Origin: Candidatus Magasanikbacteria bacterium RIFCSPHIGHO2_02_FULL_48_18
Lineage (GTDB): Bacteria > Patescibacteriota > Patescibacteriia > Magasanikbacterales > UBA922
Direction: 5' to 3'
DNA length: 64,000 nucleotides
Assembly (NCBI GenBank): GCA_001784285.1
Contig: MFQC01000001.1
Coordinates: 29,780 to 93,779 of the forward strand
Below the pieces are notes generated by a model. It saw nothing but the letters and a program-made list of their open reading frames with translations, searched no databases and had not been told where the DNA came from. Position numbers and translations under genes: made by a program. Shown here piece by piece: positions 32,814 to 62,235 of the stretch; positions within the stretch are counted from its first letter, which is position 1, and the number at the start of each line of letters is the position of its first letter.

Positions 32814-32844
32814 ACACTTTTTCTCCAGGTTCTCCAGGCACGAA

Positions 32845-36923: not shown

Positions 36924-36930
36924 AAGACGA

Positions 36931-46627: not shown

Positions 46628-47440
46628 CTATGATGACGTTGCAGGAGTGCCAACGTCAAAAATTCTTCCAGGGCCGGCCGGATTATACCCTGCTTTTACT
46701 TCTTGACCGTCGAGATACCCATCCCCATCAGTATCTGGATTCAGCGGATCAGTTTTCCATGCCAACACCTCGTCTCCGTCACTCAGCCCATCGCTATCCG
46801 AATCCCAATGGAGCGGATCGGTCCCCACATCTTTTTCATCCCCGTCACTGATGCCGTCACTGTCACTATCAATAGGTTCGCCAAATAATATTTGTTCATC
46901 AACTGAAAATTGCGGAGCCGGCGGTTGGGTGTTTTGTTCTCCGGACGGTACCGGCTGGCCGCTGGTTTCTCCGGTTTGCTCCGCTGTCTGGGTCGGCTGA
47001 ATATCGACCTCGTTTGTGTCTTGAATAAACACACGGTAGACGTACCATCCGGCAAAACCAAGAAATAATACCCCAACTCCGGCAATCAGCCCGATCGCCA
47101 GACCCCGGCTCAACAATGGCTCCTTCATTGGGTAGTCCATTTGTTCTTCCGGTGGTGTGATAATTTTGGGCGGGACATCCGGAGGCTGCGACGGCACCAT
47201 ATCTAATGATTCGGGAGACGATTTCGGTTTTAAAATTCCTGCTTGTATTGCTGTTTTTGGCGTGGAAAATTCCGGCGCGACACCGAACGAATCCGGATTT
47301 TTTTCTAACGGATTGGGCTCGCTTATCGGAACGGTTTCATCCGCAGATACATCGGTTTGACCAAAAATATCTTCCGGCTCTGCCGTGGGAAGATTGGGCG
47401 GGACAGAACCTTTTGGTTGGAGTGCTGAATCATCAAACAT
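46628..47440 (-). CDS. membrane-anchored protein with thrombospondin-type-3-like calcium-binding repeats (paralog of 45483-46598)
   Basis: Pro-rich N-terminus, a single TM (LAIGLIAGVGVLFLGFAGWYVY), and a C-terminal DSDSDGISDGDEKDVGTDPLHWDSDSDGLSDGDE...DTDGDGYLDGQEVKAGYNPAGPG. Confidence 0.45.
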   Translation of the reverse strand: MFDDSALQPKGSVPPNLPTAEPEDIFGQTDVSADETVPISEPNPLEKNPDSFGVAPEFSTPKTAIQAGILKPKSSPESLDMVPSQPPDVPPKIITPPEEQMDYPMKEPLLSRGLAIGLIAGVGVLFLGFAGWYVYRVFIQDTNEVDIQPTQTAEQTGETSGQPVPSGEQNTQPPAPQFSVDEQILFGEPIDSDSDGISDGDEKDVGTDPLHWDSDSDGLSDGDEVLAWKTDPLNPDTDGDGYLDGQEVKAGYNPAGPGRIFDVGTPATSS

Positions 47441-47482: not shown

Positions 47483-50400
47483 TTATTGGAGCCCGCCGCT
47501 ATTGGGGCATTGATCCGTACCCGTAAGCGCACAAGAACCCGGATTCACCGCGTTTTGTACATCGCAAAAACAGGTCCGAATCTTTTGCTGGCTTTCTATT
47601 TTTATATCACCATTTCCATCTTTCACCAAATTAAACACATGCCAATACTCCGCGTTTTTGTTGGTGCTCGTTCCTTTTGCTTCGGTAATGGGAAATACTT
47701 GATCCGGAAGATACATCGCTGACAGTGGGTCGTCGGCGTTGGTAAAGGATTTTGGTTTGTATAATTCTACAATAAATGACGTATTGTTTTGATCTTCAAA
47801 AATTGAATGGGTAATATTCTTTACAAAAAACCCAAGCTTGTCCCCATTGTTGAGCGGATTGGTGTTGATGGTGAAGGATTGCGCGTTGATTTGACCAATC
47901 TGTCCATAGGGATGAACAAAAATACTTCCGCCATACCCGGAACATCCGTCCGGATACCAATATTTTATAGCGTTACTCGTTGTTTGTTTTATGGTATCAC
48001 AAAAATTTTGGCTGGCGGCAAGTGGATTTACGGTCGGGTAGGACCCAGATTTTATTTGGGGGCCGGTGGCGGGATCGTGATACACGTGTGGAAGAATATC
48101 ATTTTTCCCAAAACTGTTCCCCCACCGTACTACCACGCGATACGTATTTGGTGGCGTTGCCGGAGAAAGCAGGAATTCGTTCTTGATATCCGCGCCGGAG
48201 ACATTGAGTGGGTATGGAAAATAACTGCTGTTTGCCACGGAAGAAAAAGTAGTTTTGTACGCGGCGGAACAAAGCGCGCTCCCTTCAATAAGAGGACTCC
48301 CGCTAAAGGTATTATAATCCATAAATGCAGCGGGCATATCTTTCTCTGAACCAATTTTCTTTTTGTTCGCCCCGTCCGGTCCTACTTTGTACAACGACAA
48401 TTTCATTTTTTTTCTCCACTCGTCACCCATCTGAACGCTGTTACCGAGCATAACATTCATAACTGACCACTGTGCTTTCTTTCCTGTAGTGGCTTCTCCG
48501 CACAGCACGCAGCCACTCACTAAATTGAGGCATTGATTTTCGCAAGCAAAACTCCCGTAGCCATACTTCGGGTCTGTAGTTGCATCGCCATCATCGGTAT
48601 AAAGGCTCTCACACGTAATTGGACTCGCAAGATTGCCCACCTTCTTTTGAACCACCTGGCCGGTTGCGGCAACCATGTCACACTGTTCACTGCTGCCAGT
48701 ATTCACTTTTGCGTCACCACAATATCCGGTTGCCGGCTTGGTTATTTCGGTACATTCTTTGGTACAATAGGTACATTCAAGATTATACCCCGGCGTGCAT
48801 TCTTTCCCGTTGGCACTTCCGAGGTCGCACTGTTCGCCCTCGTCAAGCGTTCCATTGCCGCATCCGGTTTCCGACTGCGTTCCCTGAGCCGCTCCCGCGT
48901 ATATGCCATCGCAAATCAGGGCGACACTTTTCAGTGATTGGTCCTGAGCCGCCGTCTTATCTGTTAAATTTTGTGGACAATATTGCGGCCCTTCGGGCGG
49001 GTCGACTCCAACCACAAAGCCAAGACATCCCAATCCATACGCGCGACAAATATCAGTACCTGTTGTTTCGGAAACACACGCAGAAATGGGCGTTCCCTGA
49101 AAAGAAGTTGGCGCGTCATAATCGCCTTTGCCAAGATAGATCCATGTGGTATTGGCCGCGGCATTCTTCACTTCCTTGAGATACGGATTTTGCGCTTTAC
49201 ACGCCACATTTTCTTTTTGGCATGCGGGCGTACAGCCATCAAGCGCGGTATCGTTGCCGTCATCACACGCTTCATATTGCGCATTGACCTTTCCGTCACC
49301 GCAATATCCGCCATAACTGGTGCAATCCCAAGAACATGAAAGCTCTTTAATAGTGTGATAGGTCGGGCCTGAAGAAACGTTCTTGACACAACTGCCTTTA
49401 TCTTCCACAGTGGGAGTAAACAAAGAATCAATATATGTTTGTTCATTAAACGACTGATTATTCGCGGCTTTTGTCAAATTTTCTATGGAGAGCAGTTTGG
49501 TTGCCACAGGGACATTTTCACAATCGATGGATTTGTCGCAGAGAATGCCGGGATCTTTAAAACAACGGCCCGTAAATTTAGTGCACTCCTCAGGGTAAAT
49601 GGAAAAACCAAAGTCATTATCATCCCCGAACGAGCCCAACAATCCATCGAAGAGAGCGCTAAATACTTTTGCGATGCTATAATTGTTAAACGCGAACGAC
49701 TTTGTATTGAGATAGGTAAACGCGTTTTGGCAATCTACTTTTGAATTCAATCCGGTGAAGCATTGGAGAAGCCATTGTTCAAAATTTGCATCGCATTGCA
49801 TGCGCGTGTAGGTGTTATTATTGGCAGGAAGAACAAACGCCGGCGCCGCGGAAAGTTTTTCACATAATAAGCCCACATTGTTAAAGTATTTGCCGTCGCC
49901 GCATTTGGACTGTTCAAACTGGCATATCGCACTGCATCCGTCTAAGGAAGCGGTGTTTCCATCGTCGCATCCTTCTCCAAGCTCCACTTTACTGTTACCG
50001 CATTCTGCGATTGGTTTGCATGACGGCGATTCTGCCCAGGCGCAATCCGCGCCGCACAAACCAATATAGGCCTCGCTAAACGCACAATTGCCACCTGCCA
50101 CATACACCGTGCTATTTGGCGATTCGCATTCTTCTCCTTGATTGAGATTTCCATCACCACATACGCCGGCAAATGGACTCATAAACGTCCCCGGCTGACA
50201 CGCCTGCGCCGTGGTATAGAAACTCGTCATGTAGGCCTGGCCTTCGCAGTTATCATGGAACCCATTATTATTACTGTCTTGTGCTGGATTGTTTGGAATA
50301 AGACTCAACCCTAAAAATGATACGTCTGATACATTTATTATGCCATCGCAGTTAAGGTCTGCCTCTTCAACCGATACAGAAAGACAGTCTTTCGTCCCAT

Positions 50401-53400
50401 CCCATTGATATGGGCTAAGACTTGCCGGAATTATTCCGTTCTGAACGCCTTCCACATAAAGATTCAGCTGGTTCAAACAAGTTTGATCCTCGGAATTGAC
50501 AACATTATCCCCGTTAATATCCCCGGGAATATATTGCTTATCCGCATACCCGAGAATAGTAAACTCTTTAAATTGTTTTAAATCAGTATTGGAAAAATAT
50601 TCCATTGGCGCGTGAAACGCATATTTCTTATTTGACGGGGCAAAGGTGTATTCATAGATGCTTGATTGGAGCGGACAATGAAACGCCGGCGTTTTGCTTT
50701 CCCAACAGGTTTGCTGATCTTCTGGATCACATTCGGACCACTGATTGAGCGGATCATTGGGCATCCCGAAGGTAATTTCTTTCGAGAGGGTCTGCACCCA
50801 CGACGGCCAGCGGGAATTGGTATAGTATGGAATAAAAGTCCCGGCCTGAAGATCGGGGTAAACATTGCCATGCATGCTGTAATATTGGAACATGGCTTCC
50901 TGCACATCCCGAATATCTTCGAGACGCGACAAATCTCGCTTCAATTTTGTCCGATAATTATGGCAGGTGGTGAGTGGAACGGTTTCGACGATTTCCGGTG
51001 CATATCCAAGACAGGTATTAAACCCGCTACAATCCGTATTGACACTGCAAGACAGCGGCGGAAGGGTGTTGGTCAGGACCAATCCCTTTTCCCCGACGAC
51101 CCATATCGTGTCCTTGTCTTTCGCAAAAAGCCCCAAATATTTTCCCATGACGGCATTCGCCCCCTGATTCCAAATGACGTGCCATGTGTTTCCGCCATCC
51201 GTCGTCTCCACCAAACGGCGCTGTTCTGACAAAGCGAGCACATACTGGCCATCGGGTGAAACAAAGATATCTTTAAATGTAAGCTGTTTTACTTGAATTG
51301 CATTCAATCCATCAACGGTATTCTTTAATGCCCATGTTTTCCCTCCATCATTGGTAAACAACAACTTGCCCCCGTCGCCAACGACCCATCCATTGGTTTT
51401 CGATGAAAAATGCACTCCATAAAGCTCGGAATCCACATTGCTATTTTGCACTATCCATGTTTTTCCTCCATTTGTGGTTGCCAATATTGTCCCTTCCGAA
51501 CCAACAACCCACCCATAGTTTCTATCAAAAAAGAAAACCCCATGAAAATAGACCGACTCTTTTCCTTTTGGCGGTTGTTGTTTTTGCCAAGTTTTCCCAG
51601 TATCCCAAGTCCAAAGAATAATTCCATTCGTTCCCGCAACCCACCCTGTCGATGCATCGCCAAAACTTATTGCTTCGAGTGATGTGCCGGGATCGGTAAT
51701 AAACCTTTTCGTGTCAATGGATTCCCACGTTGTGCCACCATCGGTTGTCTCCATAAATGTTCCCACCCTTCCGGCAAGCCACCCATGATTTTCATTCAAA
51801 AAAAGAACGTCTTCAATAATAATAATACCGGAGCCAGGAAGATTGGGAATGGTAATAGGAGCCCACGTCTTGCCGCTGTCCTCGGTTTTAAGTATTTTTA
51901 CTTCTCCAGATTCGGTTCCAATCCACCCCTTGTCTCCAACAAAAGTTATCGTATTGAGACCAACCGAGACACCGTCCACAACAACTTGAGCATACCCTTC
52001 ATCCACCATACATGCCCCCGCTTGTTCTTCGGTCACATTTTGAATCACGGCATCTTTGCAGGACAAATCTGAATCGCACGAAAGCGACTGGGCGATATTG
52101 ACGTTCGTCCCGTCCCCACAATACGGATCATCGGGAATATTGATATTAAAGGTTAAAGAATTGATGATTTGTGTAAAGACGTTTTTTGTGCTCGCCTGCG
52201 CGTCGGTATTGATACTAAATAAATAGATATTACTGTACCACTTGTTATTCGCGTCATCTTTGTTGAGAACATTGATATAATAATTGGATCCGTCGGTAAT
52301 CGCCTGGTAGCCATCCACTTCAACCGCTTGAAACCCCCCGACCTGAAACCCTTTGTATTCTTTGAGCCAGGCAATCGGCGAAAGCCGTTTTGGATTTTTA
52401 AATATCTGGAGACCGACGAGATCGTCATTTTGATTATTGAAAAAGCCAAGTTTGATAATTGACAACGGATCCTGCGTCGCGAGCGTGGTTTCGACATTCA
52501 AGAATGGCAGGTCATCAAGCGCCGTTCCGGGGGCTCCTGCGTCCGAACAATACCACATGGCGACATGAAACGCGCTCGGATCGGCTTCGGACCATGGTTT
52601 CCACGTCCCGTCGGACTTTTTTGCAGGCCACGGTTTTTCACAAAACACGGCAAACAAATCGGTAGACGCGGAAAATACTTTACCAACGTGGTTATTGGTA
52701 ACCTCCGCATCGGCAACGACGGTCGCGTTGACAAAACCGGTTGCCTCTCCTTGAACGGTTTTCGAGCCAATCGCAATCGTATCGGTCTTCCCATCAGGAT
52801 CCGGAGAGTCAGGATGCGGAATGGTAAACAGTTCATTTTCTTTTGGACCCCAATCCCATTCCCAATCATACACAGACGAAATTGGAACAATCTGCTGATT
52901 GTTTTGTGAGTTTGTTATAGCATGAAACGTGGACGTGGTATTTGGCGCGTCAAACAAATAACTGTCCGGCTCTATGGAAACTCCGGCTAATTTACACACG
53001 GCATTTCCGGTTTGAAACACCCATATATCGTCTCGGCTCGTGTTTCCCGACTCCGGATTTTTGATACCAACCCCTTTTACATCCGCGATACCGCCCAATC
53101 CGCCTCGAAGCATCACCGCGTACACCGTGTCGAATTGTAACAGTTTGTTGATCACCAATGAAACCGTACTTGAAACCACCTTGTCGTCACTATTTTTTGT
53201 ATAGGCCACCTTTGGCACTGCGGTCACGCTGCCGCTGCACCACACACTCATGTCATCGACTGCATTTGCAAATTCGGTTGCTAATACATCGCGTCCAAAT
53301 AATTTGGCAAAAAATTGTTTCACGTGGTTCCATAATTTCACGAAAAAACTCTGCTCAGAACCGACATCGTTATACGCAAATGTGGCCTGTACCATATCCG

Positions 53401-56400: not shown

Positions 56401-59400
56401 TGAGGTCCTGGCCCGCGTTTCGGCAATCCGCGGCCTCATACATCACCCAGTTGCTTTGTTCGGTGTCAACCTGCACCTGTATTGGTCCTTTTTTCATGGA
56501 ATACCCACCAAGGGACGCGTCTTTGACAGGAAACAGCGTTTGAATTTCTCCATCGGTCCACGCGGGAATATCCTCGGCCACCAATGGCGGGTTTATAAAA
56601 CCCGGTATCAACTCGGAAATATCTTTATTAGGATCAAACCAATCATTGTGCGTCGCGGAAAGCCATGTTGATGGCGTTGTTGTGACGGCTCCTTGCGTCC
56701 AAAAATACGTTATGGCGCTTCCTGAACCAAAATTTTTCCCAACAATTTTTACTTTTTTATTGATATCCAAAATCGGCGAGTTACCCGCCTTGGGCGTCAA
56801 ACTGCAGATGCTTGGTTTTGGCGCGCCATTCTGCACTTCAAATGTTTTTGCCCCATCAGTAGAAAATAAACTGTTATTGATAAGCGCAAGCGCATATTCC
56901 TGAAAACCCACTTCCGGAACCTCCACAATCACTTGGGTGTTGGTCCATGTTTCAGAACACCCAAGCGGAAATTGCTGGCCCATTTCGAAACACCCATCTG
57001 CTGCTGTCGGCGTTTGATTATTTGCTTTTTTCTGAACACACCCAAGCACGGCCTCCTGATCTTCGGCAAGATACACCTGGCCCGACGTGCCAAACCCTTT
57101 CCCAAAAATTGTCACGTAACTTTTTGGCGTGGATGTCGGCGGGTTGATGCTCTCAATAACCGGCTGAAGATCTTCCGTATTTTTTACAACGGTAAATGGA
57201 ACGCCGTTACTGTTTTCTCCGCCCACGGTCACGACAACCCCGACTGCAAGGCTCTCCGCTCCTTGGGTGTCAATCGAGGGAACAGTGGTTTTGATATTTT
57301 CAGAAGACCAATCACCGGTTTTGACAGACGCAGGGATGTTGCCAAAGGCAATCGCGCTTTCATTTTGAGTATTTTGAAACCCGCTTCCTTCGGCTAAAAC
57401 CGGCGTATTGACGGTTCCGGCGGTCTGTCCGGTTGAGACGCCATTTTCATCGAGAACTGTAACCCCGCAAAGACCAGGCCGTTCTACGGTATTTTTTTCA
57501 AACATGCCCACGTATGGCAAGTGGTCATCCACTGTTGAGTCTGTCATAGGGGCAACAATCCCCGCAGGTTTTTCCGAGGCGGCTCTTTCAATTTGAATTC
57601 CGCTCTGAGACGATTGCGGCAAAACAGTATCCTCTGGAACTTCGGCAATAATCCAGGAATCACGCCAGGTATCGGTATTACAAGAAACAATCTCTCCGGA
57701 AATAGCATAGCCTTCACCATCCTGGGACACAATTTCTCCATCGTCATTGGTATCTATGCCAAATCGAATTTGTCCGGCATCGTCGCCAAAATGGGCGCCG
57801 AGGATGGTCACCCAATTTCCTGACGCGCCGTCGAGAGGATCCACGCCCGTAATGGTCGGCCACTCGGTACAGGTACATTCGGCTTTAGGAGTGCCGGAAC
57901 AAAACTCTCCAGACGTATTATCAATACATTTTTCATCCGCCGGGCACTGTGCGTCCGTCGTGCAATCATTGCCGGAGGTAAACGGACAAAGCGAAGGATC
58001 CACGCCCGGAAGCGGTTTTCCAAATTGATCACACTCTCCGGAACCCCCATTGACCATAAACGGAATACTCTTTTTTGTTTCATTACCGTCGATATCGTGG
58101 GCGGCAATCACCAACCAATATGTTTTGCCAACCGTAAATGTTTGCCAGACATAATCCACGATATCAATAGGAAACGGTTGCGAAGAGCCAATACTCACGA
58201 CAGGGCCGTCCACATAATAATTTTGAAAAAGCGACGGACCATTCGGACCAGTCGCGCTCACATGAACCAACGCATAACTCACTCCCCCAAAATTGTTTGG
58301 GGCATAATCGTCAACCACAGTCTTGAGTGTATATTGACTGCCTTTTTGCAATAACAGTGGAGCGTTGCCGATTACTTTCATGCCGTTGACAAACACATCG
58401 CCAATGGTGGGTTTGACAAAGTCAAAATAAATTTGATCTGCCAAAAAAGACGCACTTAAAGGATACGAAACGCCCTCCTCATCCATATTTTCAAGAACAT
58501 CGCCTGCCGCGTTTGTTACCGTATCATTGATCTGAATCGCATAGTCTGCGTTTGTATCAAACGGAAGACAGACATCGCTTGATACTCCCAAACTTTTCTC
58601 TGCGAAGTATTGCTGTACCTGTGCCGCGGACAATCCTTGCGGCAAGCTCTGGAATGAAAAGAGGGTGTAATCAACACCGGCCATTTTTTCAGCAATCTTC
58701 CAAGGAGCGGCCGACGGGACAAACGGCGGAGGAACCTCTTTTGATTCATCAATAAGCTGGCCGGCCTTATTATACATTTTTAAACTATTGTTCTCCCAGG
58801 TGATAATATACTGATTCGGCTGTCCCACGACAAAAGATGATTTCTTATCACACACATGTGGAGAATTTTGCGTGGTCGGATTGTTTATCGCATACTGGCT
58901 GATAAAACAAAATCCGCCTCCGCCCGCGAAAAAAAGGAAGCCATATTCCATAAAATTTGGCGTATTCCCATTTTTATAAATCAACCGCTCTACGCCGCCG
59001 CCTGCGGGCAGTGGATCGTCAAGTTGGAGCGTCAATTCCATGGTCATGGGCTGGGCCATATACGGCAACAGATCTTCTCCCGGAACCGTTTTTGTTTTTG
59101 ACACACTGTCGACAAGGTATCCTTCTTCTCCGGGATCAATACCGGACACCTGAAGCAAATCAACCCATGGCAGGTCATGAATGAGAGGTTCCGGAAAACT
59201 GCAGGAATCACCGCCGGCGTACACTCCCTCGGCGACATAACTTTTTTCTTTTAGCGCAGTCTGCAAATCATAAGACTGACCATTTTTTTCAAGATGAAAA
59301 ATCGTATTCGCGTCGATAGAGCCGATGGGCTGACTAAAAATAGCCCGAACACGAATATTGTTCATTTTTGTTCCCGGAGGAGCCGCCGGCGTGCTTGGCG

Positions 59401-59956
59401 TAATACTCTTGACATAAAACGTATCCGCGCACCAAGACGGCTTTTTAAATCCTTCTTCCAGCTCACAGGCACACAATGGGTCAATCATGGGATCGCAGGT
59501 AAACGGTGTTTTCGGACAATCCGGCCCCACACAGCCCCCGCCCCCGTCTCCTCCACCGCCGGTAAGTGCTTTCAGTAAAAATTGAACAATCGTAAGGGCG
59601 GAAAGAATAATAACAAGCCCAATCACGCCATTGATAATAGTTTGTTTTGCTCGAGTTATTTTGTCTTCTTCACCCTGCGAGGTCATGTAGAGGTACCCGC
59701 CATACAAAATAATCCCCAACAAAACAATCCCAACAAGGCCCAGAAGAACACGAATGATCTTCCCGATAATAATACGAATATCGGTCCCATTGAGCGAAAT
59801 GCCCTGCTCCACCTCGCTCACGCCAAAATCGGTTTGAGCAAAAACCGTATCGACAGAATACGACACCGCCAATCCAAACAGAAACAGCGAAAAGAACAAC
59901 CCTAAAAAGAGAAAATGCCTCCTGTGTGTGCGTTGTCTCTTCTTTTGGAACGGCAT
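47483..59956 (-). CDS. giant (4157 aa) multi-domain cell-surface protein with an N-terminal pilin-like membrane anchor, poly-Gly stalk, IPT-like, myxococcal-type Cys-rich repeats, BNR propeller and dockerin-like repeats
   Basis: An uninterrupted 12.47-kb ORF. N-terminal module FGVSEVEQGISLNGTDIRIIIGKIIRVLLGLVGIVLLGIILYGGY...AKQTIINGVIGLVIILSALTIVQFLLKALTGGGGDGGGG. The rest is extremely Cys-rich, with the sub-domains listed as separate features below. Confidence 0.85.
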   Translation of the reverse strand: MPFQKKRQRTHRRHFLFLGLFFSLFLFGLAVSYSVDTVFAQTDFGVSEVEQGISLNGTDIRIIIGKIIRVLLGLVGIVLLGIILYGGYLYMTSQGEEDKITRAKQTIINGVIGLVIILSALTIVQFLLKALTGGGGDGGGGCVGPDCPKTPFTCDPMIDPLCACELEEGFKKPSWCADTFYVKSITPSTPAAPPGTKMNNIRVRAIFSQPIGSIDANTIFHLEKNGQSYDLQTALKEKSYVAEGVYAGGDSCSFPEPLIHDLPWVDLLQVSGIDPGEEGYLVDSVSKTKTVPGEDLLPYMAQPMTMELTLQLDDPLPAGGGVERLIYKNGNTPNFMEYGFLFFAGGGGFCFISQYAINNPTTQNSPHVCDKKSSFVVGQPNQYIITWENNSLKMYNKAGQLIDESKEVPPPFVPSAAPWKIAEKMAGVDYTLFSFQSLPQGLSAAQVQQYFAEKSLGVSSDVCLPFDTNADYAIQINDTVTNAAGDVLENMDEEGVSYPLSASFLADQIYFDFVKPTIGDVFVNGMKVIGNAPLLLQKGSQYTLKTVVDDYAPNNFGGVSYALVHVSATGPNGPSLFQNYYVDGPVVSIGSSQPFPIDIVDYVWQTFTVGKTYWLVIAAHDIDGNETKKSIPFMVNGGSGECDQFGKPLPGVDPSLCPFTSGNDCTTDAQCPADEKCIDNTSGEFCSGTPKAECTCTEWPTITGVDPLDGASGNWVTILGAHFGDDAGQIRFGIDTNDDGEIVSQDGEGYAISGEIVSCNTDTWRDSWIIAEVPEDTVLPQSSQSGIQIERAASEKPAGIVAPMTDSTVDDHLPYVGMFEKNTVERPGLCGVTVLDENGVSTGQTAGTVNTPVLAEGSGFQNTQNESAIAFGNIPASVKTGDWSSENIKTTVPSIDTQGAESLAVGVVVTVGGENSNGVPFTVVKNTEDLQPVIESINPPTSTPKSYVTIFGKGFGTSGQVYLAEDQEAVLGCVQKKANNQTPTAADGCFEMGQQFPLGCSETWTNTQVIVEVPEVGFQEYALALINNSLFSTDGAKTFEVQNGAPKPSICSLTPKAGNSPILDINKKVKIVGKNFGSGSAITYFWTQGAVTTTPSTWLSATHNDWFDPNKDISELIPGFINPPLVAEDIPAWTDGEIQTLFPVKDASLGGYSMKKGPIQVQVDTEQSNWVMYEAADCRNAGQDLKNQYAAQYQCCETGGDVGQWKLKNALCAGGSREAGYVWRFSTGKIPVSPHVVEQCDVLNWNVAGVAVPFPSPVPWSGWEGGADACVNGTVAVQFTMPMDAASFNEETVKIYTCGSGEQSDCGDNPILIPFASLEEKGLEYIGGGQDILKIIKGDFSQGNLDPGVWYRVELLSGIQSAPQNLGPGKENVTIPLGKSAVLHCDPLNAEDTVYCFEFKTGSSCVLSSVGIEPPEKEVSYLGVLLGQAFANDDTANLKGLFTVNDVLTATKNDPNALFYYMLMGKSDKACNVLEVNGLGWQWATSDEAKATALVVQNIPNHDDFGNAIALENTTPGFVDITAVSNFSIKNNTAGIDTDFLDVGSNITEILNAIPSELTINLSNPSVSYFEPNCAEACINGGIMVQFDTYMDKTTYANGFAVFECANANCANLTNVTNLFVPLNPALQTNFILRATLNPGEMLKPNTYYKVALNEENTVGGQTVSPVAGIYDGQIGIMSAGSKNDLAKVGKQLPPTSWVFKTKDSTVPCTADGLNVLPNPFSAYVIGEKTLFTAQPKASPNECSKYGQLLNQWDYGYAWGTLNQNVASVTNFISPASLQPFCTKNCLPKGSVFTAKEAESLYLCGNGTQDPGEDCDWGMDPTDYCTESCLFTESKATAEGLVGSEPYSLFDPTKVGQSWCGDGQLTLGEACDIGISLEKAGATPWNSKINCTNTCVHTGTQPQAWLCEGSSSPLCKESASVCGNGYLEKGEECEVQSETQIKKWIVNGSGNFVETVVNASEEQCGASCLLQDVCGTALEQCDPTQDAGCLKDCTFAGSSLLYPEPSLCGNTIVDAGEYAMCEVSATGNTHGNNPLQLVTAVGNGAVDPVSFAQSTQIEATLDGWYTSTTPGVSITGLADYSLQCGFTEFQAPDDNDDYNNCVENPDNEFGVGKNSCCYPRPKRTSEYPQDGTGLADEPACPNTYIEVTFDGAIDENTLTVPGNFVITNGHEDKNFDCAAQGEADVTDMVQATFAYNDVGSEQSFFVKLWNHVKQFFAKLFGRDVLATEFANAVDDMSVWCSGSVTAVPKVAYTKNSDDKVVSSTVSLVINKLLQFDTVYAVMLRGGLGGIADVKGVGIKNPESGNTSRDDIWVFQTGNAVCKLAGVSIEPDSYLFDAPNTTSTFHAITNSQNNQQIVPISSVYDWEWDWGPKENELFTIPHPDSPDPDGKTDTIAIGSKTVQGEATGFVNATVVADAEVTNNHVGKVFSASTDLFAVFCEKPWPAKKSDGTWKPWSEADPSAFHVAMWYCSDAGAPGTALDDLPFLNVETTLATQDPLSIIKLGFFNNQNDDLVGLQIFKNPKRLSPIAWLKEYKGFQVGGFQAVEVDGYQAITDGSNYYINVLNKDDANNKWYSNIYLFSINTDAQASTKNVFTQIINSLTFNINIPDDPYCGDGTNVNIAQSLSCDSDLSCKDAVIQNVTEEQAGACMVDEGYAQVVVDGVSVGLNTITFVGDKGWIGTESGEVKILKTEDSGKTWAPITIPNLPGSGIIIIEDVLFLNENHGWLAGRVGTFMETTDGGTTWESIDTKRFITDPGTSLEAISFGDASTGWVAGTNGIILWTWDTGKTWQKQQPPKGKESVYFHGVFFFDRNYGWVVGSEGTILATTNGGKTWIVQNSNVDSELYGVHFSSKTNGWVVGDGGKLLFTNDGGKTWALKNTVDGLNAIQVKQLTFKDIFVSPDGQYVLALSEQRRLVETTDGGNTWHVIWNQGANAVMGKYLGLFAKDKDTIWVVGEKGLVLTNTLPPLSCSVNTDCSGFNTCLGYAPEIVETVPLTTCHNYRTKLKRDLSRLEDIRDVQEAMFQYYSMHGNVYPDLQAGTFIPYYTNSRWPSWVQTLSKEITFGMPNDPLNQWSECDPEDQQTCWESKTPAFHCPLQSSIYEYTFAPSNKKYAFHAPMEYFSNTDLKQFKEFTILGYADKQYIPGDINGDNVVNSEDQTCLNQLNLYVEGVQNGIIPASLSPYQWDGTKDCLSVSVEEADLNCDGIINVSDVSFLGLSLIPNNPAQDSNNNGFHDNCEGQAYMTSFYTTAQACQPGTFMSPFAGVCGDGNLNQGEECESPNSTVYVAGGNCAFSEAYIGLCGADCAWAESPSCKPIAECGNSKVELGEGCDDGNTASLDGCSAICQFEQSKCGDGKYFNNVGLLCEKLSAAPAFVLPANNNTYTRMQCDANFEQWLLQCFTGLNSKVDCQNAFTYLNTKSFAFNNYSIAKVFSALFDGLLGSFGDDNDFGFSIYPEECTKFTGRCFKDPGILCDKSIDCENVPVATKLLSIENLTKAANNQSFNEQTYIDSLFTPTVEDKGSCVKNVSSGPTYHTIKELSCSWDCTSYGGYCGDGKVNAQYEACDDGNDTALDGCTPACQKENVACKAQNPYLKEVKNAAANTTWIYLGKGDYDAPTSFQGTPISACVSETTGTDICRAYGLGCLGFVVGVDPPEGPQYCPQNLTDKTAAQDQSLKSVALICDGIYAGAAQGTQSETGCGNGTLDEGEQCDLGSANGKECTPGYNLECTYCTKECTEITKPATGYCGDAKVNTGSSEQCDMVAATGQVVQKKVGNLASPITCESLYTDDGDATTDPKYGYGSFACENQCLNLVSGCVLCGEATTGKKAQWSVMNVMLGNSVQMGDEWRKKMKLSLYKVGPDGANKKKIGSEKDMPAAFMDYNTFSGSPLIEGSALCSAAYKTTFSSVANSSYFPYPLNVSGADIKNEFLLSPATPPNTYRVVVRWGNSFGKNDILPHVYHDPATGPQIKSGSYPTVNPLAASQNFCDTIKQTTSNAIKYWYPDGCSGYGGSIFVHPYGQIGQINAQSFTINTNPLNNGDKLGFFVKNITHSIFEDQNNTSFIVELYKPKSFTNADDPLSAMYLPDQVFPITEAKGTSTNKNAEYWHVFNLVKDGNGDIKIESQQKIRTCFCDVQNAVNPGSCALTGTDQCPNSGGLQ
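48690..50190 (-). repeat. second cluster of myxococcal-type Cys-rich repeats near the C-terminus of the giant protein
   Basis: CGDGNLNQGEECESPNS, CGNSKVELGEGCDDGNTASLDGCSAIC, CGDGKYFNNVGLLCE, CGDGKVNAQYEACDDGNDTALDGCTPAC, CGNGTLDEGEQCDLGSANGKEC, CGDAKVNTGSSEQCD. Confidence 0.5.
50290..50550 (-). other. dockerin-like pair of calcium-binding repeats within the giant protein
   Basis: GDINGDNVVNSEDQTCLNQ followed about 60 aa later by DLNCDGIINVSDVSFLGL, a type-I-dockerin-like D.N.DG.vn..D pattern. Confidence 0.4.
51180..51900 (-). repeat. BNR/Asp-box beta-propeller (six S/T-x-D-x-G-x-T-W repeats) within the giant protein
   Basis: TEDSGKTWAPI, TTDGGTTWESI, WDTGKTWQKQ, TTNGGKTWIVQ, TNDGGKTWALK, TTDGGNTWHVI, at regular spacing. 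Confidence 0.55.
53890..54560 (-). repeat. cluster of myxococcal-type Cys-rich repeats (DUF4215-like, CGNG..D.GEECD) within the giant protein
   Basis: CGNTIVDAGEYAMCE, CGNGYLEKGEECEVQ, CGDGQLTLGEACDIG, CGNGTQDPGEDCDWG. Confidence 0.5.
57780..57900 (-). other. IPT/TIG-like Ig-fold segment within the giant protein
   Basis: CTEWPTITGVDPLDGASGNWVTILGAHFG, a typical IPT first strand (P.I..v.P..G...G.T.vti.G.nF). Confidence 0.35.
59450..59956 (-). other. N-terminal two-helix membrane module with T4SS-pilin-like (TrbC/VirB2-type) topology, plus a poly-Gly linker
   Basis: Signal/TM segment, an exposed segment, a helix (GIVLLGIILYGGYLYM), a short polar loop (SQGEEDKITRAKQ), a second helix (INGVIGLVIILSALTIVQFLL), then GGGGDGGGG. 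The same module is found in the 59965-62235 and 7696-8850 products. Confidence 0.4.
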
Positions 59957-59964
59957 GCAAAAAA

Positions 59965-62235
59965 TTAAAGGCTCTTCGATTCCATATAGTCAAGGCAGAG
60001 CGGAATATTTTCTTTCAAAAGATCGGGGCTGTCATCGGTGAGCGTTTTACCGATAACAGACGTCACGGCACAGCCCGTATCTGTATTAGCCTCATATGCG
60101 GCCATCACACAGTTCCCGTTTGTGATGCCCGTGTTTTGATTGAATGTACATTCTTTCGACGACCCGCCGATATTTTCTTCCGGAGTTGCGCTAAATGGCC
60201 CGATGCCCGGATAAAGGCAATTTTGATATGCGTCCTTGAGGGTGCTCGAAACGGTTGGAAAATAGTACAAATCCGTGTCATACGGCCCAAATCCACGGCC
60301 GCCATATGGCTTGGCAAAGGCAATCGTGGTGGTTGGCCCATAGGCGGTCGTCATACTATTTCCAATGGAATGAGGCCACGTGCCATTCACATTTCCTGCC
60401 AAAAGACCTTGAAGTGTTATCGTATTTCCTTCCGCGTCTTCCCCAAGCTCAATTGATGCGGTGTCCATATCGGCTGGCGCATATTCTTTGACATCAATAT
60501 CATAGAGCGACGTGCTCAGCATGAGTTTGCTAAATTCAAGGGATAATGGTGCGTTTTCAACCACATCCTGACCGTCCGGTCCGGGTCGCACACGCTTTAT
60601 ATATGGCGCAATAAGATCTTTTTCGTTTTGTATGGTGTAATCCCAGCAGTAATTATCTTTTTTTGATTCTGGCGCACATTCCTGCTCATCAATCACGGCA
60701 CTATCTCCAATGGACGGCTTTCCATTTGCGATACCATTGACATTGCCGTCCAGGGCGTTCCCCGACGCATCGGTAATACCGGTAAACGGAAAGGACTTAA
60801 ACGAGGTAAGCGATGCGGTATTTATCAATTGGGCGGTTCTTAGCAGTGTCTGGTACCCATTGGTACACGACGTATCACCGGGCGTACAATCCAATTGGAT
60901 ACAATAAATTTGTTCCCCGCACGCGTTTTGACCGCAGGGATTGTTTGGGATGAATTCCACCGTGGTATAGCCATTTGAAATAATCCACTCTCCCGAAGGG
61001 AGTATGGCATTCCCCGTAGTGCTACCAAACGCAATATGAAAAAGCGTGGTATTTTCGGGATCCAATTGATCCACAATGCCTTGGACTTGGAGCGGATCCA
61101 TCGCCTCACTAAAATCGATCCGAAGAATCTTGTTGCTTTTATCGGTACTCCCCTGAACCGGTGTAACAAAAAGAACGGTGGGCGGTGTCTCATCAAACAC
61201 CGTATCGGTCTGAAAATTCCACGCGTAAAAACCGGCCGCGCCAAGGTACCCATCAGCAATCTCTCCGGTTTCCGGATGTTTTTTCAGCAGGCCTTTTTCC
61301 TGATCTTTGCCGCCGGTGATGCGGGCCGTATACCATAATTTTTCATTGTCATTGCCAAGCGGGCTATGTGGCTTCAAGACAAACGTGGTTGCGTTGTTTT
61401 TGGCGTCATACGTGGTCATCGCGGCAAACGGAAGAAAGTCATCTCCCGTAAGGTTAAGGAACGGCGTCGTGGTTGTTTGATACAGCCGAATGGTCCCCGG
61501 ATTTGCCTGGTCGCACTCCTCGCTCCAGTACGTATTCGCGTTAAATGGTTCTCCGGGATGCGTGTCTTCCCACAAAAGACAGTTGCCAAAAATACCGTCG
61601 GCATTGGTATCGAGAATAATACTTTCCGGAAGAATAGGCTCACGAAAAGTAATAAAAATTTGTGTGTCTCTTGGAACATCCACTTGCCCGGCAAACGGAT
61701 AATGATCTTTGATAAGGCCTCCCAGTCCTCCGCTCCCCCAAAAACTTTCAATGGCCGGCGGTTTGGGAGCGGTAATTCCTCCGCCGCCGCCGCCTTTATT
61801 GGTGAGGGCATTCAATAAAAATTGAACTATTGCCAATGAAGACAAAATAATCACCAGACCAATCACGCCATTCATGAGTATTTTCTTTCCTTGCTCAACT
61901 TTGTCCGCGTTTCCGCCCGATACCATAATGGTGTACCCGCCATACAAGATAATACCGAGCGCGATAATACCAAGAAGGCCAAGAAGAACGCGAATAATTT
62001 TCCCAACAATCACCCGAATATCAATACCACTTAAAGAAATGCCTTCTTCCACTTCTTGCACGCCAAAATCTTGCGGCGGTGCCTGATTGTCTACAAACTG
62101 CGCGGAGACAGAAAGAACGCCGGAAAAGAAAAAAAGGAAAAAACAAACAAAAAAAACCCGTCTTTTCCAAAATGGACTTAATAATGTTCTTGTGTCTTTT
62201 GCAAAATGATATTGCTTCATGATGAATGAAGACAA
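59965..62235 (-). CDS. 756-aa surface protein with the same N-terminal pilin-like module and poly-Gly linker; immediately upstream of the giant gene (8-bp gap) and probably co-transcribed
   Basis: N-terminal FGVQEVEEGISLSGIDIRVIVGKIIRVLLGLLGIIALGIILYGGY...AIVQFLLNALTNKGGGGGG closely parallels the giant-protein N-terminus, and the nucleotide sequences are also visibly similar. The ectodomain has an unknown fold. A -10 TATACT lies at 62252-62257. Confidence 0.75.
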   Translation of the reverse strand: MSSFIMKQYHFAKDTRTLLSPFWKRRVFFVCFFLFFFSGVLSVSAQFVDNQAPPQDFGVQEVEEGISLSGIDIRVIVGKIIRVLLGLLGIIALGIILYGGYTIMVSGGNADKVEQGKKILMNGVIGLVIILSSLAIVQFLLNALTNKGGGGGGITAPKPPAIESFWGSGGLGGLIKDHYPFAGQVDVPRDTQIFITFREPILPESIILDTNADGIFGNCLLWEDTHPGEPFNANTYWSEECDQANPGTIRLYQTTTTPFLNLTGDDFLPFAAMTTYDAKNNATTFVLKPHSPLGNDNEKLWYTARITGGKDQEKGLLKKHPETGEIADGYLGAAGFYAWNFQTDTVFDETPPTVLFVTPVQGSTDKSNKILRIDFSEAMDPLQVQGIVDQLDPENTTLFHIAFGSTTGNAILPSGEWIISNGYTTVEFIPNNPCGQNACGEQIYCIQLDCTPGDTSCTNGYQTLLRTAQLINTASLTSFKSFPFTGITDASGNALDGNVNGIANGKPSIGDSAVIDEQECAPESKKDNYCWDYTIQNEKDLIAPYIKRVRPGPDGQDVVENAPLSLEFSKLMLSTSLYDIDVKEYAPADMDTASIELGEDAEGNTITLQGLLAGNVNGTWPHSIGNSMTTAYGPTTTIAFAKPYGGRGFGPYDTDLYYFPTVSSTLKDAYQNCLYPGIGPFSATPEENIGGSSKECTFNQNTGITNGNCVMAAYEANTDTGCAVTSVIGKTLTDDSPDLLKENIPLCLDYMESKSL

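What the first reader, a model, noticed from the sequence alone, without database searches (positions are those of the whole stretch)
47483..62235. Two-gene operon: a 4157-aa multi-domain surface protein and a 756-aa partner, both anchored by the same pilin-like N-terminal module
A single uninterrupted 12.47-kb ORF takes up about a fifth of the window and is preceded, with only an 8-bp gap, by a 2.3-kb gene on the same strand. The giant protein is a mosaic: an N-terminal two-helix membrane module, a poly-Gly stalk, an IPT-like segment, two clusters of CGNG/CGDG-x-GEECD myxococcal-type Cys-rich repeats, a six-bladed BNR/Asp-box propeller and a dockerin-like Ca-binding pair. It has several hundred cysteines. 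This architecture fits an extracellular adhesin/attachment organelle, which in an ultra-small reduced-genome (CPR-like) organism would be a candidate host-attachment structure. Its exact combination of domains does not correspond to any named family.
Basis: partly seen in the sequence, partly recalled or inferred. Interest (0 to 1): 0.85.

Follow-up and report, generated by a model that had tools for sequence, protein, structure and literature searches.

The report
Giant surface protein on pilin-like anchor
An ultra-small groundwater bacterium (Candidatus Magasanikbacteria) spends over 1% of its genome on a 4157-residue adhesin-like surface protein and a 751-residue partner, each attached to a copy of the small two-helix subunit that normally builds conjugation-type (type IV secretion) pili; with two neighbouring membrane-protein genes they form a cassette found in hundreds of related species, and its function has not been tested.

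Summary
ORF A (47483-59956, minus strand, 4157 aa) and ORF B (59965-62220, 751 aa from the ATG) lie 8 bp apart. They share only an N-terminal module: a signal peptide, a two-helix hairpin and a Gly hinge (67% identity; Pfam T4SS_pilin above threshold in both). The identical 4157-aa protein sits on 17 contigs from at least four sources, so it is not a misassembly.

Corrections:
- A has 142 cysteines, not several hundred.
- The propeller has six Asp boxes but seven blade-like repeats.
- The dockerin match is below Pfam's threshold.
- The conserved unit is four genes: B, A and two Ca-binding-repeat membrane proteins.

The source is Candidatus Magasanikbacteria RIFCSPLOWO2_02_FULL_47_16 (1.11 Mb). 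At least 505 species genomes encode a B relative. In the loci examined, B is followed directly by a giant pilin-anchored gene and lies just downstream of hisS (yqeY detected in most).

A has a conserved Ig-like and Cys-rich stalk (aa 500-2620). Its add-on modules differ between lineages, and some lineages encode its distal third as a separate secreted protein. The A and B hairpins co-evolve within each genome.

Best reading: a hairpin-anchored fibrillar adhesin complex. A pilus-incorporated "modular VirB2 pilin" remains open. It is a new variant of known kinds.

The parts
59965..62220 (-). Gene B: 751-aa pilin-anchored Ig-like protein. An alternative TTG start at 62235 would give 756 aa.
   Evidence: ORF list. 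ATG start used by gene callers. T4SS_pilin and Big_5. 142 homologue clusters of about 650-760 aa.
62101..62220 (-). B signal peptide, aa 1-40, ending in SVSA before Q.
   Evidence: Hydrophobic segment. Helix 16-33 in the AF2 model. The cleavage site is inferred from the A-x-A/Q pattern seen in the window and in the L006 and L007 giants.
61804..62019 (-). B VirB2-like two-helix hairpin, aa 68-139.
   Evidence: Pfam T4SS_pilin 34.5 bits, above the 26.6 cut-off. AF2 helices 68-100 and 105-139, block-mean pLDDT 66-87.
59968..61725 (-). B ectodomain, aa 166-751: a string of Big_5/SbsA-type Ig-like domains behind a disordered Gly-rich hinge (aa 140-165).
   Evidence: AF2 beta-rich, many residues with pLDDT above 90. 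Foldseek hits to LdtMt2 BIg domains, S-layer proteins SbsC and Sap, titin and protocadherins.
47483..59956 (-). Gene A: 4157-aa pilin-anchored giant surface protein (OGH77887.1 / HAZ29089.1, annotated 'hypothetical protein').
59837..59956 (-). A signal peptide, aa 1-40, ending in TVFA before Q.
   Evidence: Hydrophobic segment 13-36. Cleavage site inferred.
59561..59785 (-). A VirB2-like two-helix hairpin, aa 58-132.
   Evidence: Pfam T4SS_pilin 39.6 bits, above the 26.6 cut-off. TrbC E 0.003. NF045849 32 bits, below its cut-off of 40. 67% identical to the B module.
59531..59560 (-). Gly hinge GGGGDGGGGC, aa 133-142.
   Evidence: Read directly from the sequence.
58460..59530 (-). Lineage-variable proximal region, aa 143-499.
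   Evidence: Mostly gapped in L007 and L008, low identity in L006. No Pfam match.
52097..58459 (-). Conserved stalk core, aa 500-2620: Big_5-like Ig domains, a Cys knot, 3-4 TIG domains (aa 700-1170) and the first CGNG/GEDCD repeat cluster (aa 1800-2010).
   Evidence: Conserved in all orthologues compared. TIG in 14 of 14 and Big_5 in 13 of 14 orthologues. Segment scans.
51059..51994 (-). Ycf48-like BNR beta-propeller, aa 2655-2966. A lineage-specific insertion.
   Evidence: PSII_BNR 102.5 bits. PDB Ycf48 hits at E 4e-18. Six Asp boxes. Absent from L007, L008 and 13 of 14 orthologues.
50537..51004 (-). Conserved helix-plus-sheet domain, aa 2985-3140 (K.KL.RD..RL.DL ... WPSW). The point at which the gene is split in other lineages.
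   Evidence: Found in 84 sequences. Split genes. AF2 pLDDT 58. No PDB match by sequence or fold.
50312..50527 (-). Dockerin-like pair of Ca-binding loops, aa 3144-3215.
   Evidence: Dockerin_1 19.0 bits, below the 22.9 cut-off, E 0.0017. The two D.N.DG..N..D loops can be read in the sequence.
47486..50173 (-). Variable distal region, aa 3262-4157: second Cys-rich repeat cluster and an unannotated C-terminal tail.
   Evidence: TIGR02232 47.6 bits. DUF4215 25.5 bits, just under its cut-off of 27. Only partly shared with L007.
46628..47440 (-). T1: 270-aa single-pass membrane protein with three bacterial TSP3 (Ca-binding) repeats. Third gene of the conserved cassette.
   Evidence: TSP3_bac 67.5 bits. 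Sequence. A homologue directly follows the giant gene (or its split distal gene) in 14 other loci.
45483..46598 (-). T2: 371-aa single-pass membrane protein with a TSP3-like motif and a C-terminal domain of unknown function. Fourth gene of the cassette.

Best explanation
This is a conserved cell-envelope cassette (B, A, T1, T2) of class ABY1 Patescibacteria. It displays a very long, fibrillar, adhesin-like protein on the cell surface.

Proposed mechanism:
1. A and B are made with cleavable Sec-type signal peptides.
2. The mature N-terminus is a VirB2/T4SS-pilin-type helical hairpin that sits in the cytoplasmic membrane with both ends outside.
3. A flexible Gly hinge follows, then the ectodomain.
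4. B carries about 590 aa of Ig-like (Big_5/SbsA-type) domains.
5. A carries a conserved stalk of about 2100 aa (Ig-like, TIG and disulfide-rich repeats). Beyond the stalk come exchangeable distal modules. Here these are a Ycf48-like propeller, a dockerin-like Ca site and more Cys-rich repeats. Elsewhere they are LamG lectin, VWA and others.
6. The two hairpins are kept matched to each other within each genome. I infer that they pack together, or dock on the same partner, so that B acts as the short base partner of the long A fibre.
7. The fibre most likely binds a partner cell or surface.

What is shown: the architecture, the conservation, the synteny, the co-variation of the hairpins and the separability of the distal third.
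What is inferred: the membrane topology, A-B pairing, disulfide bonding and the adhesive role.
For: - The pilin-type hairpin is above Pfam's threshold in both proteins, and the layout is signal peptide plus two transmembrane helices.
- The B ectodomain folds as tandem Ig-like domains with no enzyme fold found.
- In the A family, T4SS_pilin and TIG occur in 14 of 14 orthologues and Big_5 in 13 of 14. Accessory modules vary: LamG in 4, VWA in 2, the propeller and the dockerin-like pair only here, plus Kazal, MopE and SdrD_B.
- The conserved core versus variable ends is mapped.
- The B-then-giant pair is present in every locus where the contig continues, in the same hisS-proximal setting (hisS matched in 78 loci, yqeY in 56). 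At least 505 species genomes encode a B relative.
- T1 and T2 follow the giant gene in 14 loci.
- Within-genome identity of the A and B hairpins averages 62%. Between genomes it is 52% (A-A), 49% (B-B) and 49% (A-B). The excess is positive in 66 of 69 genomes.
- In the one genome where I could test it, its nine scored stand-alone pilins show no such excess, so base composition does not explain it there.
- There are no long identical DNA tracts between the two modules (third-position identity 47%, longest exact run 15 nt), so recent gene conversion is not the cause here.
- In 7 loci the part equivalent to A residues from about 3037 onward is a separate gene with its own signal peptide. That implies a module that associates with the stalk.
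- A membrane-anchored DsbA-like oxidoreductase is encoded in the window at 7039-7689.
- No T4SS machinery genes lie in the 64-kb window.
- In the cultivated relative Southlakia, dockerin-, VCBS- and FN3-domain surface proteins are essential for epibiotic growth (PMC10633639).
Against: - No binding, localisation or expression data exist.
- No recognised adhesive domain was identified with confidence in this protein. The propeller's ligand is unknown and the dockerin match is sub-threshold.
- Adhesins usually evolve fast and move around genomes. This cassette is core, syntenic and sits next to ybeY-dgkA-ftsA-ftsZ, which would also suit a structural envelope role.
- The within-genome similarity of the hairpins could come from old gene conversion between neighbouring paralogues rather than from physical pairing. 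Identical codons are 57% of identical residues against 37% expected.
- The hairpin belongs to a family whose known role is polymerisation into pili, and the genome has VirB4. A pure anchor role is therefore not the only reading.
Confidence: 0.55

Rival explanations
1. A and B are modular VirB2-type pilins. The T4SS elsewhere in the genome (VirB4 and partners) extracts their hairpins from the membrane. It builds them into, or at the tip or base of, a pilus made of the small stand-alone pilins, so the pilus carries a giant adhesin. This would be the T4SS counterpart of modular type IV pilins such as PilB.
For: - The hairpin is a T4SS_pilin family member by Pfam threshold.
- The closest relatives of the isolated module are 119-155-aa stand-alone pilins.
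- The genome is listed as VirB4-positive (PMC12102498 Table S1).
- A related Magasanikbacteria genome has both the cassette (L021) and a separate array of at least 10 small pilin genes (L089).
- In some genomes a stand-alone pilin-like ORF of 76-130 aa sits inside or beside the cassette (L008, L065, L079, L088).
- From established knowledge of VirB2/TraA pilus structures, both ends of the hairpin face the outside of the fibre, so a C-terminal graft is topologically possible.
- Modular type IV pilins set a precedent (PMC8179133).
Against: - The cassette is not next to T4SS genes in this 64-kb window.
- The A and B modules are much better conserved between genomes (about 50%) than array pilins (about 25% average identity within arrays, PMC12102498).
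- In the one genome tested, they co-vary with each other but not with that genome's small pilins.
- A 4000-aa graft cannot be tolerated at every subunit position.
- No VirB2-family pilin with a large graft turned up in the literature I searched.
Confidence: 0.22
2. The cassette is a structural envelope system rather than an adhesin. B would be an S-layer-like or spacer protein and A a scaffold. The hairpin anchors them, the Ca-binding T1 and T2 proteins hold them together, and they serve cell shape or division.
For: - The B ectodomain matches the S-layer proteins SbsC and Sap and is built of Big_5 (SbsA-type Ig) domains.
- The cassette is a core, syntenic feature in the loci examined, with ybeY-dgkA-ftsA immediately downstream in the five loci (including the window's own genome, L002) that extend that far.
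- The stalk is conserved from Magasanikbacteria to Uhrbacteria.
Against: - The Foldseek TM-scores are low (0.1-0.3) and show only generic tandem Ig-like resemblance.
- The distal modules of A are swapped between lineages (lectin, VWA, propeller). That pattern is typical of ligand binding, not of lattice building.
- A 4157-aa Cys-rich protein is unlike known S-layer subunits.
Confidence: 0.13
3. The long ORF is an assembly chimera of repeats or a decaying pseudogene.
For: One assembly has an N-terminally truncated call, identical to A residues 804-4157.
Against: - The identical full-length protein is on 17 contigs; the five shown come from four sources built with different pipelines.
- It is colinear with orthologues over 2000-3400 aa.
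- Its internal repeats are divergent, not identical.
- Fourteen orthologues share invariant Cys, Trp and Pro columns along the whole length.
Confidence: 0.02

Closest known systems
VirB2/TrbC-type T4SS pilins of Patescibacteria (Pfam PF18895; Quinonero-Coronel et al. 2025, PMC12102498; Wang et al. 2023, PMC10633639)
   Same: The same Pfam family for the signal-peptide-plus-hairpin module and the same phylum. The closest relatives of the isolated module are stand-alone pilins of 119-155 aa.
   Different: Known members are small stand-alone subunits. They often sit in arrays near virB4 and are highly divergent. Here the hairpin is the first 3% of a 4157-aa protein (and about 10% of a 751-aa one). 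It lies in a housekeeping neighbourhood without T4SS genes and is much better conserved. That paper reports finding no PrgB-like adhesins in Patescibacteria, and in the passages I read it does not describe fused forms.
Modular type IV pilins (PilB and PilC of Streptococcus sanguinis, CofB, TcpB; Raynaud et al. 2021, PMC8179133)
   Same: The same design logic: a small pilin module, a short linker, and a grafted functional module (VWA, lectin and others). They are frequent in CPR.
   Different: A different, unrelated pilin superfamily. Type IV pilins have a class III signal peptide and a single N-terminal helix, are processed by a prepilin peptidase and are assembled by the T4P machinery. The grafts here are up to about 5 times longer than the largest case cited there (860 aa).
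Fibrillar adhesins (Monzon and Bateman 2021, PMC8286594)
   Same: Long multidomain surface proteins with Ig-like stalk repeats (TIG, Big_x) and variable distal modules.
   Different: The anchor is N-terminal and is a VirB2-like hairpin. This is not among the anchors that study searched for (Gram-positive LPxTG anchor, SLH, LysM, CHU_C and others). A is also paired with a conserved partner that carries the same anchor.
Myxococcal Cys-rich repeat proteins (TIGR02232 / DUF4215) and Ycf48-type BNR propellers
   Same: Both repeat types are present above threshold (TIGR02232 47.6 bits; PSII_BNR 102.5 bits).
   Different: They are accessory pieces of a larger protein. The propeller is a lineage-specific insertion in a non-photosynthetic organism, so the Ycf48 function (photosystem II assembly) does not transfer.

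Membership tests
T4SS_pilin (PF18895) / VirB2-TrbC pilin superfamily | The profile HMM match reaches the curated threshold. | tested here: met
   A 39.6 bits and B 34.5 bits, cut-off 26.6. TrbC PF04956 reaches only 18.1 bits (cut-off 27.9) and NF045849 32.2 and 25.8 bits (cut-off 40).
T4SS_pilin (PF18895) / VirB2-TrbC pilin superfamily | A long signal peptide followed by two hydrophobic helices joined by a short polar loop. | tested here: met
   Three hydrophobic segments in both proteins. AF2 of B gives helices 16-33, 68-100 and 105-139.
T4SS_pilin (PF18895) / VirB2-TrbC pilin superfamily | A small protein that consists essentially of the hairpin. | tested here: not met
   4157 aa and 751 aa.
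T4SS_pilin (PF18895) / VirB2-TrbC pilin superfamily | Encoded with the T4SS machinery (virB4, virB3, virB6). | tested here: not met
   Pfam scans of the major ORFs of the 64-kb window found none of these. VirB4 is reported elsewhere in the genome.
T4SS_pilin (PF18895) / VirB2-TrbC pilin superfamily | Similarity to solved conjugative pilins. | tested here: inconclusive
   No PDB sequence hit for the module. The hairpin could not be searched by fold on its own, and the whole-B fold search was dominated by Ig domains.
T4SS_pilin (PF18895) / VirB2-TrbC pilin superfamily | Polymerises into a pilus by way of a T4SS. | not testable with these tools
   Needs pilus purification or cryo-ET.
Fibrillar adhesins | A long protein with repeated stalk domains. 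| tested here: met
   TIG x3 (49.5 bits), several Big_5-like domains and Cys-rich repeats. TIG in 14 of 14 and Big_5 in 13 of 14 orthologues.
Fibrillar adhesins | A recognised adhesive domain. | tested here: inconclusive
   This protein has a BNR propeller and a sub-threshold dockerin. Orthologues carry Laminin_G_3, VWA and SdrD_B. No ligand is known.
Fibrillar adhesins | A known cell anchor (LPxTG, SLH, LysM and others). | tested here: not met
   No such Pfam hit. The anchor is the N-terminal hairpin.
Modular type IV pilins | A class III signal peptide or N-methylation motif (IPR012902) and a single N-terminal helix. | tested here: not met
   No such Pfam or NCBIfam hit. The N-terminus is a Sec-type signal peptide plus a hairpin.
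Modular type IV pilins | A functional module grafted C-terminal to the pilin module by a linker. | tested here: met
   A Gly hinge followed by the ectodomain in both proteins. This is analogy only.
Type I dockerin | The Pfam Dockerin_1 match reaches threshold and a cohesin partner is present. | tested here: not met
   19.0 bits, below 22.9. No cohesin hit in any scanned window protein.
Ycf48 / PSII_BNR | Profile match above threshold. | tested here: met
   102.5 bits, cut-off 27. PDB Ycf48 at E 4e-18. The NCBIfam equivalog cut-off (326 bits) is not met (102.8 bits), so this is fold membership only, not function.

The most novel reading that the evidence does not exclude
A and B are the first modular VirB2-type pilins. 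The Patescibacterial T4SS, shown to be essential for epibiotic growth in Southlakia, would then build a pilus whose tip or base carries a fibrillar adhesin of roughly 100 nm (my rough length estimate), with a matched short partner. The lineage-specific distal modules would set host range. That would make the T4SS pilus the host-attachment organelle of a large part of the candidate phyla radiation.
Probability: 0.2. Interest if true: 0.85.

Novelty: new variant of a known kind. Interest (0 to 1): 0.62.

Why it matters
Patescibacteria make up a large share of bacterial diversity, and how most of them attach to hosts is unknown. Their T4SS and its VirB2-like pilins are essential in the one genetically tractable species, but no adhesin linked to that system has been reported.

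This cassette links the pilin fold physically to giant adhesin-like ectodomains. In one class it is found in at least 505 species genomes. It takes more than 1% of a 1.1-Mb genome.

It also gives concrete handles for experiments:
- a conserved stalk to raise antibodies against;
- variable distal modules to correlate with hosts;
- a pair of co-evolving hairpins on which to test assembly.

It adds a new anchor type to the catalogue of fibrillar adhesins. About half of the adhesin-like proteins detected in the 2021 survey had no identified anchor (PMC8286594).

Tried and rejected
1. A homologue search with the full 4157-aa protein timed out. A 640-aa core segment returned only 2 hits, so the word-index tool seems to miss the giant proteins. 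I recovered orthologues through synteny instead and through the representative search.

2. By eye, aa 3000-3060 (K.KL.RD..RL.DL...Y....YP) looked like the head of a type IV pilin or pseudopilin. This is not supported and I treat it as unexplained:
   - A profile of 18 orthologues found no pilin in the PDB by sequence.
   - The AF2 model shows a long helix plus a small sheet, but at pLDDT 58.
   - Foldseek found nothing below E 2.

3. PDB sequence searches found only the propeller for whole A and nothing for the hairpin.

4. Promoter and terminator scans around the cassette were at chance level (33 against 27.4 expected; 23 against 22.0), so they define no transcription unit.

5. Recent gene conversion as the cause of A-B module similarity is rejected for this genome (third-position identity 47%, longest identical run 15 nt). 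Older conversion is not excluded.

6. Genome composition as the cause is rejected by the small-pilin control in the one genome tested.

7. I looked for the A and B accessions among the VirB2 hits in the supplement of PMC12102498. They were not in the stored part of the file.

9. The idea that the C-terminal domain of the third fusion (7696-8850) is a CHAP/NlpC-type hydrolase comes from motif memory only. Pfam gave no hit.

Full report
**Observation**

The window has an uninterrupted minus-strand ORF at 47483-59956 (ATG start, 4157 aa). Eight bases upstream of its start codon ends a second minus-strand ORF, 59965-62235 (756 aa from a TTG). Gene callers start that second ORF at the ATG at 62220, giving 751 aa. 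I call them A and B.

Each begins with a hydrophobic signal-peptide-like segment, then two long hydrophobic helices, then a Gly run. BLASTP shows that this module (67% identity over 98 aa, E 4e-19) is the only thing A and B share.

Pfam places the module in T4SS_pilin (PF18895) above the curated threshold in both proteins: 39.6 and 34.5 bits against 26.6. There are weaker matches to TrbC/VirB2 and to the NCBIfam 'Mbov_0395 pilin-like conjugal transfer protein' model.

- TIG: three stretches, 49.5 bits on the excised segment.
- Big_5.
- PSII_BNR (Ycf48-like): 102.5 bits.
- TIGR02232 Cys-rich repeat: 47.6 bits.
- Eight CG[ND]G motifs in two clusters, and six Asp boxes.

- A has 142 cysteines (3.4%), not several hundred.
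- Dockerin_1 (19.0 bits) and DUF4215 are below their Pfam thresholds.
- The propeller region reads as seven blade-like repeats, six with an Asp box. This is my reading of the sequence and fits the Ycf48 fold.

**Is the ORF real?**

The exact 4157-aa sequence is encoded on 17 contigs. The five places shown come from ENA Rifle-aquifer assemblies, two NCBI MAGs (GCA_001783045.1 and GCA_003485625.1) and a Logan assembly of SRR2090155. Two further variants differ by one residue each. One assembly has an N-terminally truncated call identical to residues 804-4157.

Orthologues from other species are colinear with A: 45% identity over 3400 aa, 32% over 2300 aa and 25% over 2100 aa. Fourteen orthologues share invariant Cys, Trp, Pro and Gly columns along the whole length. 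Misassembly and pseudogene readings are effectively excluded.

**Source and surroundings**

[quoted passage not shown] This organism is in class ABY1, with a 1.11-Mb genome and 990 CDSs. A alone is 1.1% of the genome.

The neighbours are housekeeping genes. Upstream lie hisS, a small basic protein in the position where the Uhrbacteria locus L008 has a weak Ribosomal_S21 match, and yqeY. Downstream lie ybeY, dgkA, ftsA, ftsZ and nrdR. No T4SS machinery gene was found among the window's major ORFs. The genome is listed as VirB4-positive in Table S1 of Quinonero-Coronel et al. 2025.

Same-strand packing continues on both sides of A and B, with gaps of 14-78 bp. Promoter and terminator scans are at chance level. 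Operon limits therefore cannot be set from the sequence.

**A conserved four-gene cassette**

B belongs to a family of 142 clusters (at 90% identity) found at E <= 1e-5. Members are mostly 650-760 aa, nearly all carry T4SS_pilin plus Big_5, and nearly all are from Magasanikbacteria or 'Patescibacteria group'.

I scanned the 80 fetched loci, plus three found earlier, with HMMs built here. In every locus where the contig continues, B is followed directly by a giant gene with the A core. That gene carries the same N-terminal module except in three loci (L059, L080, L084). Complete giant-gene ORFs range from 928 to 3460 aa, the shortest being split or interrupted calls. Many more are cut off at more than 3450 aa by the end of the fetched locus.

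The pair sits in the same hisS-proximal setting. I matched hisS in 78 loci and yqeY in 56, and a signal-peptidase gene (lepB) lies upstream of hisS in the loci with called genes.

Two single-pass membrane proteins with bacterial TSP3 (Ca-binding) repeats lie just downstream in the window: T1 at 46628-47440 and T2 at 45483-46598. Homologues follow the giant gene (or its split distal gene) in 14 other loci. In the five loci (including the window's own genome, L002) that extend far enough, ybeY and dgkA come next, with ftsA matched in four.

The unit is therefore B-A-T1-T2. It extends from Magasanikbacteria to Uhrbacteria and Falkowbacteria.

The exhaustive representative search with the A module found 29,567 representative proteins at E <= 0.001 and 4,485 at E <= 1e-10. 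The top 150 include 29 N-terminally anchored giants of 2026-5289 aa besides A itself, and many B-type proteins. So A is a typical member of a large family, not an oddity.

**Anatomy of A**
- aa 1-200: signal peptide, hairpin and hinge. Conserved.
- aa 200-500: variable between lineages.
- aa 500-2620: conserved stalk. It contains Big_5-like Ig domains, a Cys knot, TIG repeats and the first Cys-rich repeat cluster.
- aa 2620-3000: the BNR propeller. Among the four giants aligned it is present only in A and its close relative L006, so it is a lineage-specific insertion.
- aa 3000-3100: conserved in all.
- aa 3100-4157: variable distal region.

Across 14 orthologues, T4SS_pilin and TIG occur in 14 of 14 and Big_5 in 13 of 14. 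The accessory modules differ: Laminin_G_3 in 4, VWA in 2, the PSII_BNR propeller and the dockerin-like pair only in this protein, plus Kazal, MopE, CarboxypepD_reg, SdrD_B and a sialidase N-terminal lectin. A conserved stalk with exchangeable distal modules is the pattern of fibrillar adhesins.

In seven loci the giant is split into two genes. Gene 1 ends just after a conserved helix (K-L/F-x-R-D-x-x-R-L...). Gene 2 starts with its own signal peptide followed by G-T/S-Y-...-W-P/S-S-W. This corresponds to A residues of about 3005-3025 and 3037-3055. The distal third of A is thus a separately secreted protein in those lineages, which implies that it associates with the end of the stalk.

**Anatomy of B**

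AlphaFold2 with 24 family members gave mean pLDDT 75 and pTM 0.72. The model has a signal-peptide helix (16-33), a helical hairpin (68-100 and 105-139), a disordered hinge (141-165) and a beta-rich ectodomain, much of it above pLDDT 90.

Foldseek against the PDB returns tandem Ig-like proteins: the BIg domains of LdtMt2, the S-layer proteins SbsC and Sap, titin and protocadherins. TM-scores are low, as expected for a flexible domain string. No enzyme fold appeared.

**The two hairpins co-evolve**

Over 69 genomes, the A and B modules of the same genome are on average 62% identical. Between genomes the values are 52% (A-A), 49% (B-B) and 49% (A-B). The excess is positive in 66 of 69 genomes.

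Two simple explanations were tested:
- Composition. In genome GCA_003510435.1 the A and B modules are 68% identical to each other. Nine scored small stand-alone pilins of that genome (its array has at least 10) are no closer to their own A and B modules (25-53%) than to those of other genomes (30-49%). This control covers one genome only.
- Recent gene conversion. In the window the module DNA is 67% identical, third positions 47%, and the longest identical run is 15 nt. Identical codons are somewhat enriched, 57% against 37% expected.

The two hairpins are therefore held similar to each other specifically. The cause is either co-adaptation (they pack together or dock on the same partner) or older conversion events.

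**Mechanism**

The topology follows from the parts. This is inference.
1. A cleaved signal peptide puts the mature N-terminus outside the cell.
2. The two helices form a hairpin with a cytoplasmic loop.
3. The C-terminal ectodomain ends up outside.

This fits its 142 cysteines and a membrane-anchored DsbA-like oxidoreductase encoded in the same window at 7039-7689.

My best reading (0.55) is a hairpin-anchored fibrillar adhesin complex. A is the long fibre and B its short Ig-like base partner, paired through the matched hairpins. T1 and T2 would be Ca-binding accessory proteins, and the distal modules would bind a partner cell or surface.

The main rival (0.22) is that the hairpins do what VirB2 pilins do, and that A and B are modular minor pilins of a T4SS pilus.
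- For it: family membership, a VirB4-positive genome, small pilin arrays in the same lineage, and stand-alone pilin-like ORFs inside or beside the cassette in four loci.
- Against it: no linkage to the T4SS in the window, much higher conservation than array pilins, and no co-variation with them in the one genome tested.

A structural envelope or S-layer-like role (0.13) fits the core synteny next to ftsA and ftsZ and the SbsC/Sap resemblance. It does not fit the swapping of distal modules.

**Comparison with what is known**

VirB2-like pilins and their arrays in Patescibacteria are described in PMC12102498, PMC10633639 and the review PMC12857230. They are treated there as small subunits. PMC12102498 states that no PrgB-like adhesins were detected.

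Modular type IV pilins (PMC8179133) are the closest concept, but they belong to an unrelated pilin superfamily.

Fibrillar adhesins (PMC8286594) match the ectodomain logic. The anchors that study searched for do not include this one, and nearly half of the proteins it detected had no identified anchor.

My literature searches found no description of VirB2-type hairpins fused to giant ectodomains, or of this cassette. The library is incomplete, so this is absence of evidence only.

I rate the finding a new variant of known kinds.

**Things that led nowhere**

See Tried and rejected. The main one is the type-IV-pilin-like look of aa 3000-3060, which was not supported by profile or fold searches.

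Noticed in passing
window 7696-8850 (+), with 7039-7689 (+): A third pilin-module fusion in the same window. It is a 384-aa protein with a signal peptide, a VirB2-like hairpin at aa 83-142 and a 240-aa Cys-containing C-terminal domain with no Pfam match. My family HMM scores it at E 2.7e-8; Pfam T4SS_pilin gives only 16.4 bits, below threshold. Six bases upstream ends a membrane-anchored DsbA-like thioredoxin gene (Thioredoxin_4 74 bits, CxxC motif). This could be the oxidase for the disulfide-rich ectodomains.
   Followed up: partly
L090:3001-8328 (+) (GCA_975902405.1, protein P0140): An uninterrupted 1775-aa ORF made of 16 tandem VirB2-like hairpin modules. Its neighbours look archaeal to me (ribosomal protein L39e, Cas4). 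The representative search listed many proteins with 2-10 tandem modules (for example P0171 and P0253). I am not aware of a description of such 'poly-pilin' polyproteins.
   Followed up: partly
L025, L026, L027, L030, L031, L032, L034 (giant gene plus the following gene): The giant gene is split inside a conserved domain. Gene 1 ends after the helix K-L/F-x-RD-xx-RL. Gene 2 begins with a new signal peptide and the WPSW (or WSSW) motif. Two sequence types of the junction suggest more than one fission or fusion event.
   Followed up: partly
L059, L080, L084: Here the B-like gene is followed by a 1647-1665-aa gene with the A core but no detectable pilin module. A third gene carries the domain equivalent to A residues 2985-3140. 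This is a different way of dividing the giant.
   Followed up: no
L008:9626-9856; L065:11752-12141; L079:11896-12267; L088:7071-7442: Small stand-alone pilin-like ORFs (76-130 aa) lie inside or just upstream of the cassette in some lineages. In the three loci where one sits between B and A, it is 49-51% identical to the own A module where that could be scored (L065, L088) and 36-39% to the own B module.
   Followed up: partly
L089:4202-10426 (GCA_003510435.1, the same genome as L021): An array of at least 10 small T4SS_pilin genes (117-178 aa), interleaved with unannotated genes of 185-219 aa, on another contig of a genome that also has the cassette. No virB4 lies within the 20 kb shown.
   Followed up: no
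loci L009, L015, L016, L025 and about 30 others: Many public MAG records that carry this Patescibacterial cassette are titled 'uncultured Gammaproteobacteria bacterium', and one is titled 'Candidatus Udaeobacter sp.'. These titles look like placeholder or wrong taxonomy.
   Followed up: no
window 29294-30991, 31698-32924, 32845-33792, 35604-37055 (all minus strand): Four sizeable minus-strand ORFs without a confident Pfam family lie between scpA and the aspartyl/asparaginyl-tRNA synthetase genes. ORF 31698-32924 has a weak Asp-box/Sortilin-type hit (E 4e-4) and a hydrophobic N-terminal segment. ORFs 32845-33792 and 35604-37055 overlap stronger neighbours and may not be genes.
   Followed up: no
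window 8875-9966 (+) and 5816-7042 (+): Two membrane-anchored proteins flank the DsbA and third-fusion pair. One has weak beta-propeller (PD40/WD40-like) hits. The other has a Pro-rich linker and no family match. They may form another small envelope gene group.
   Followed up: no
P0137 (909 aa), P0112 (1101 aa), P0129 (901 aa): Other proteins that combine T4SS_pilin with different ectodomains (fn3, LVIVD repeats) turned up in the searches. The hairpin may be a general anchor or carrier for surface proteins in this phylum.
   Followed up: no
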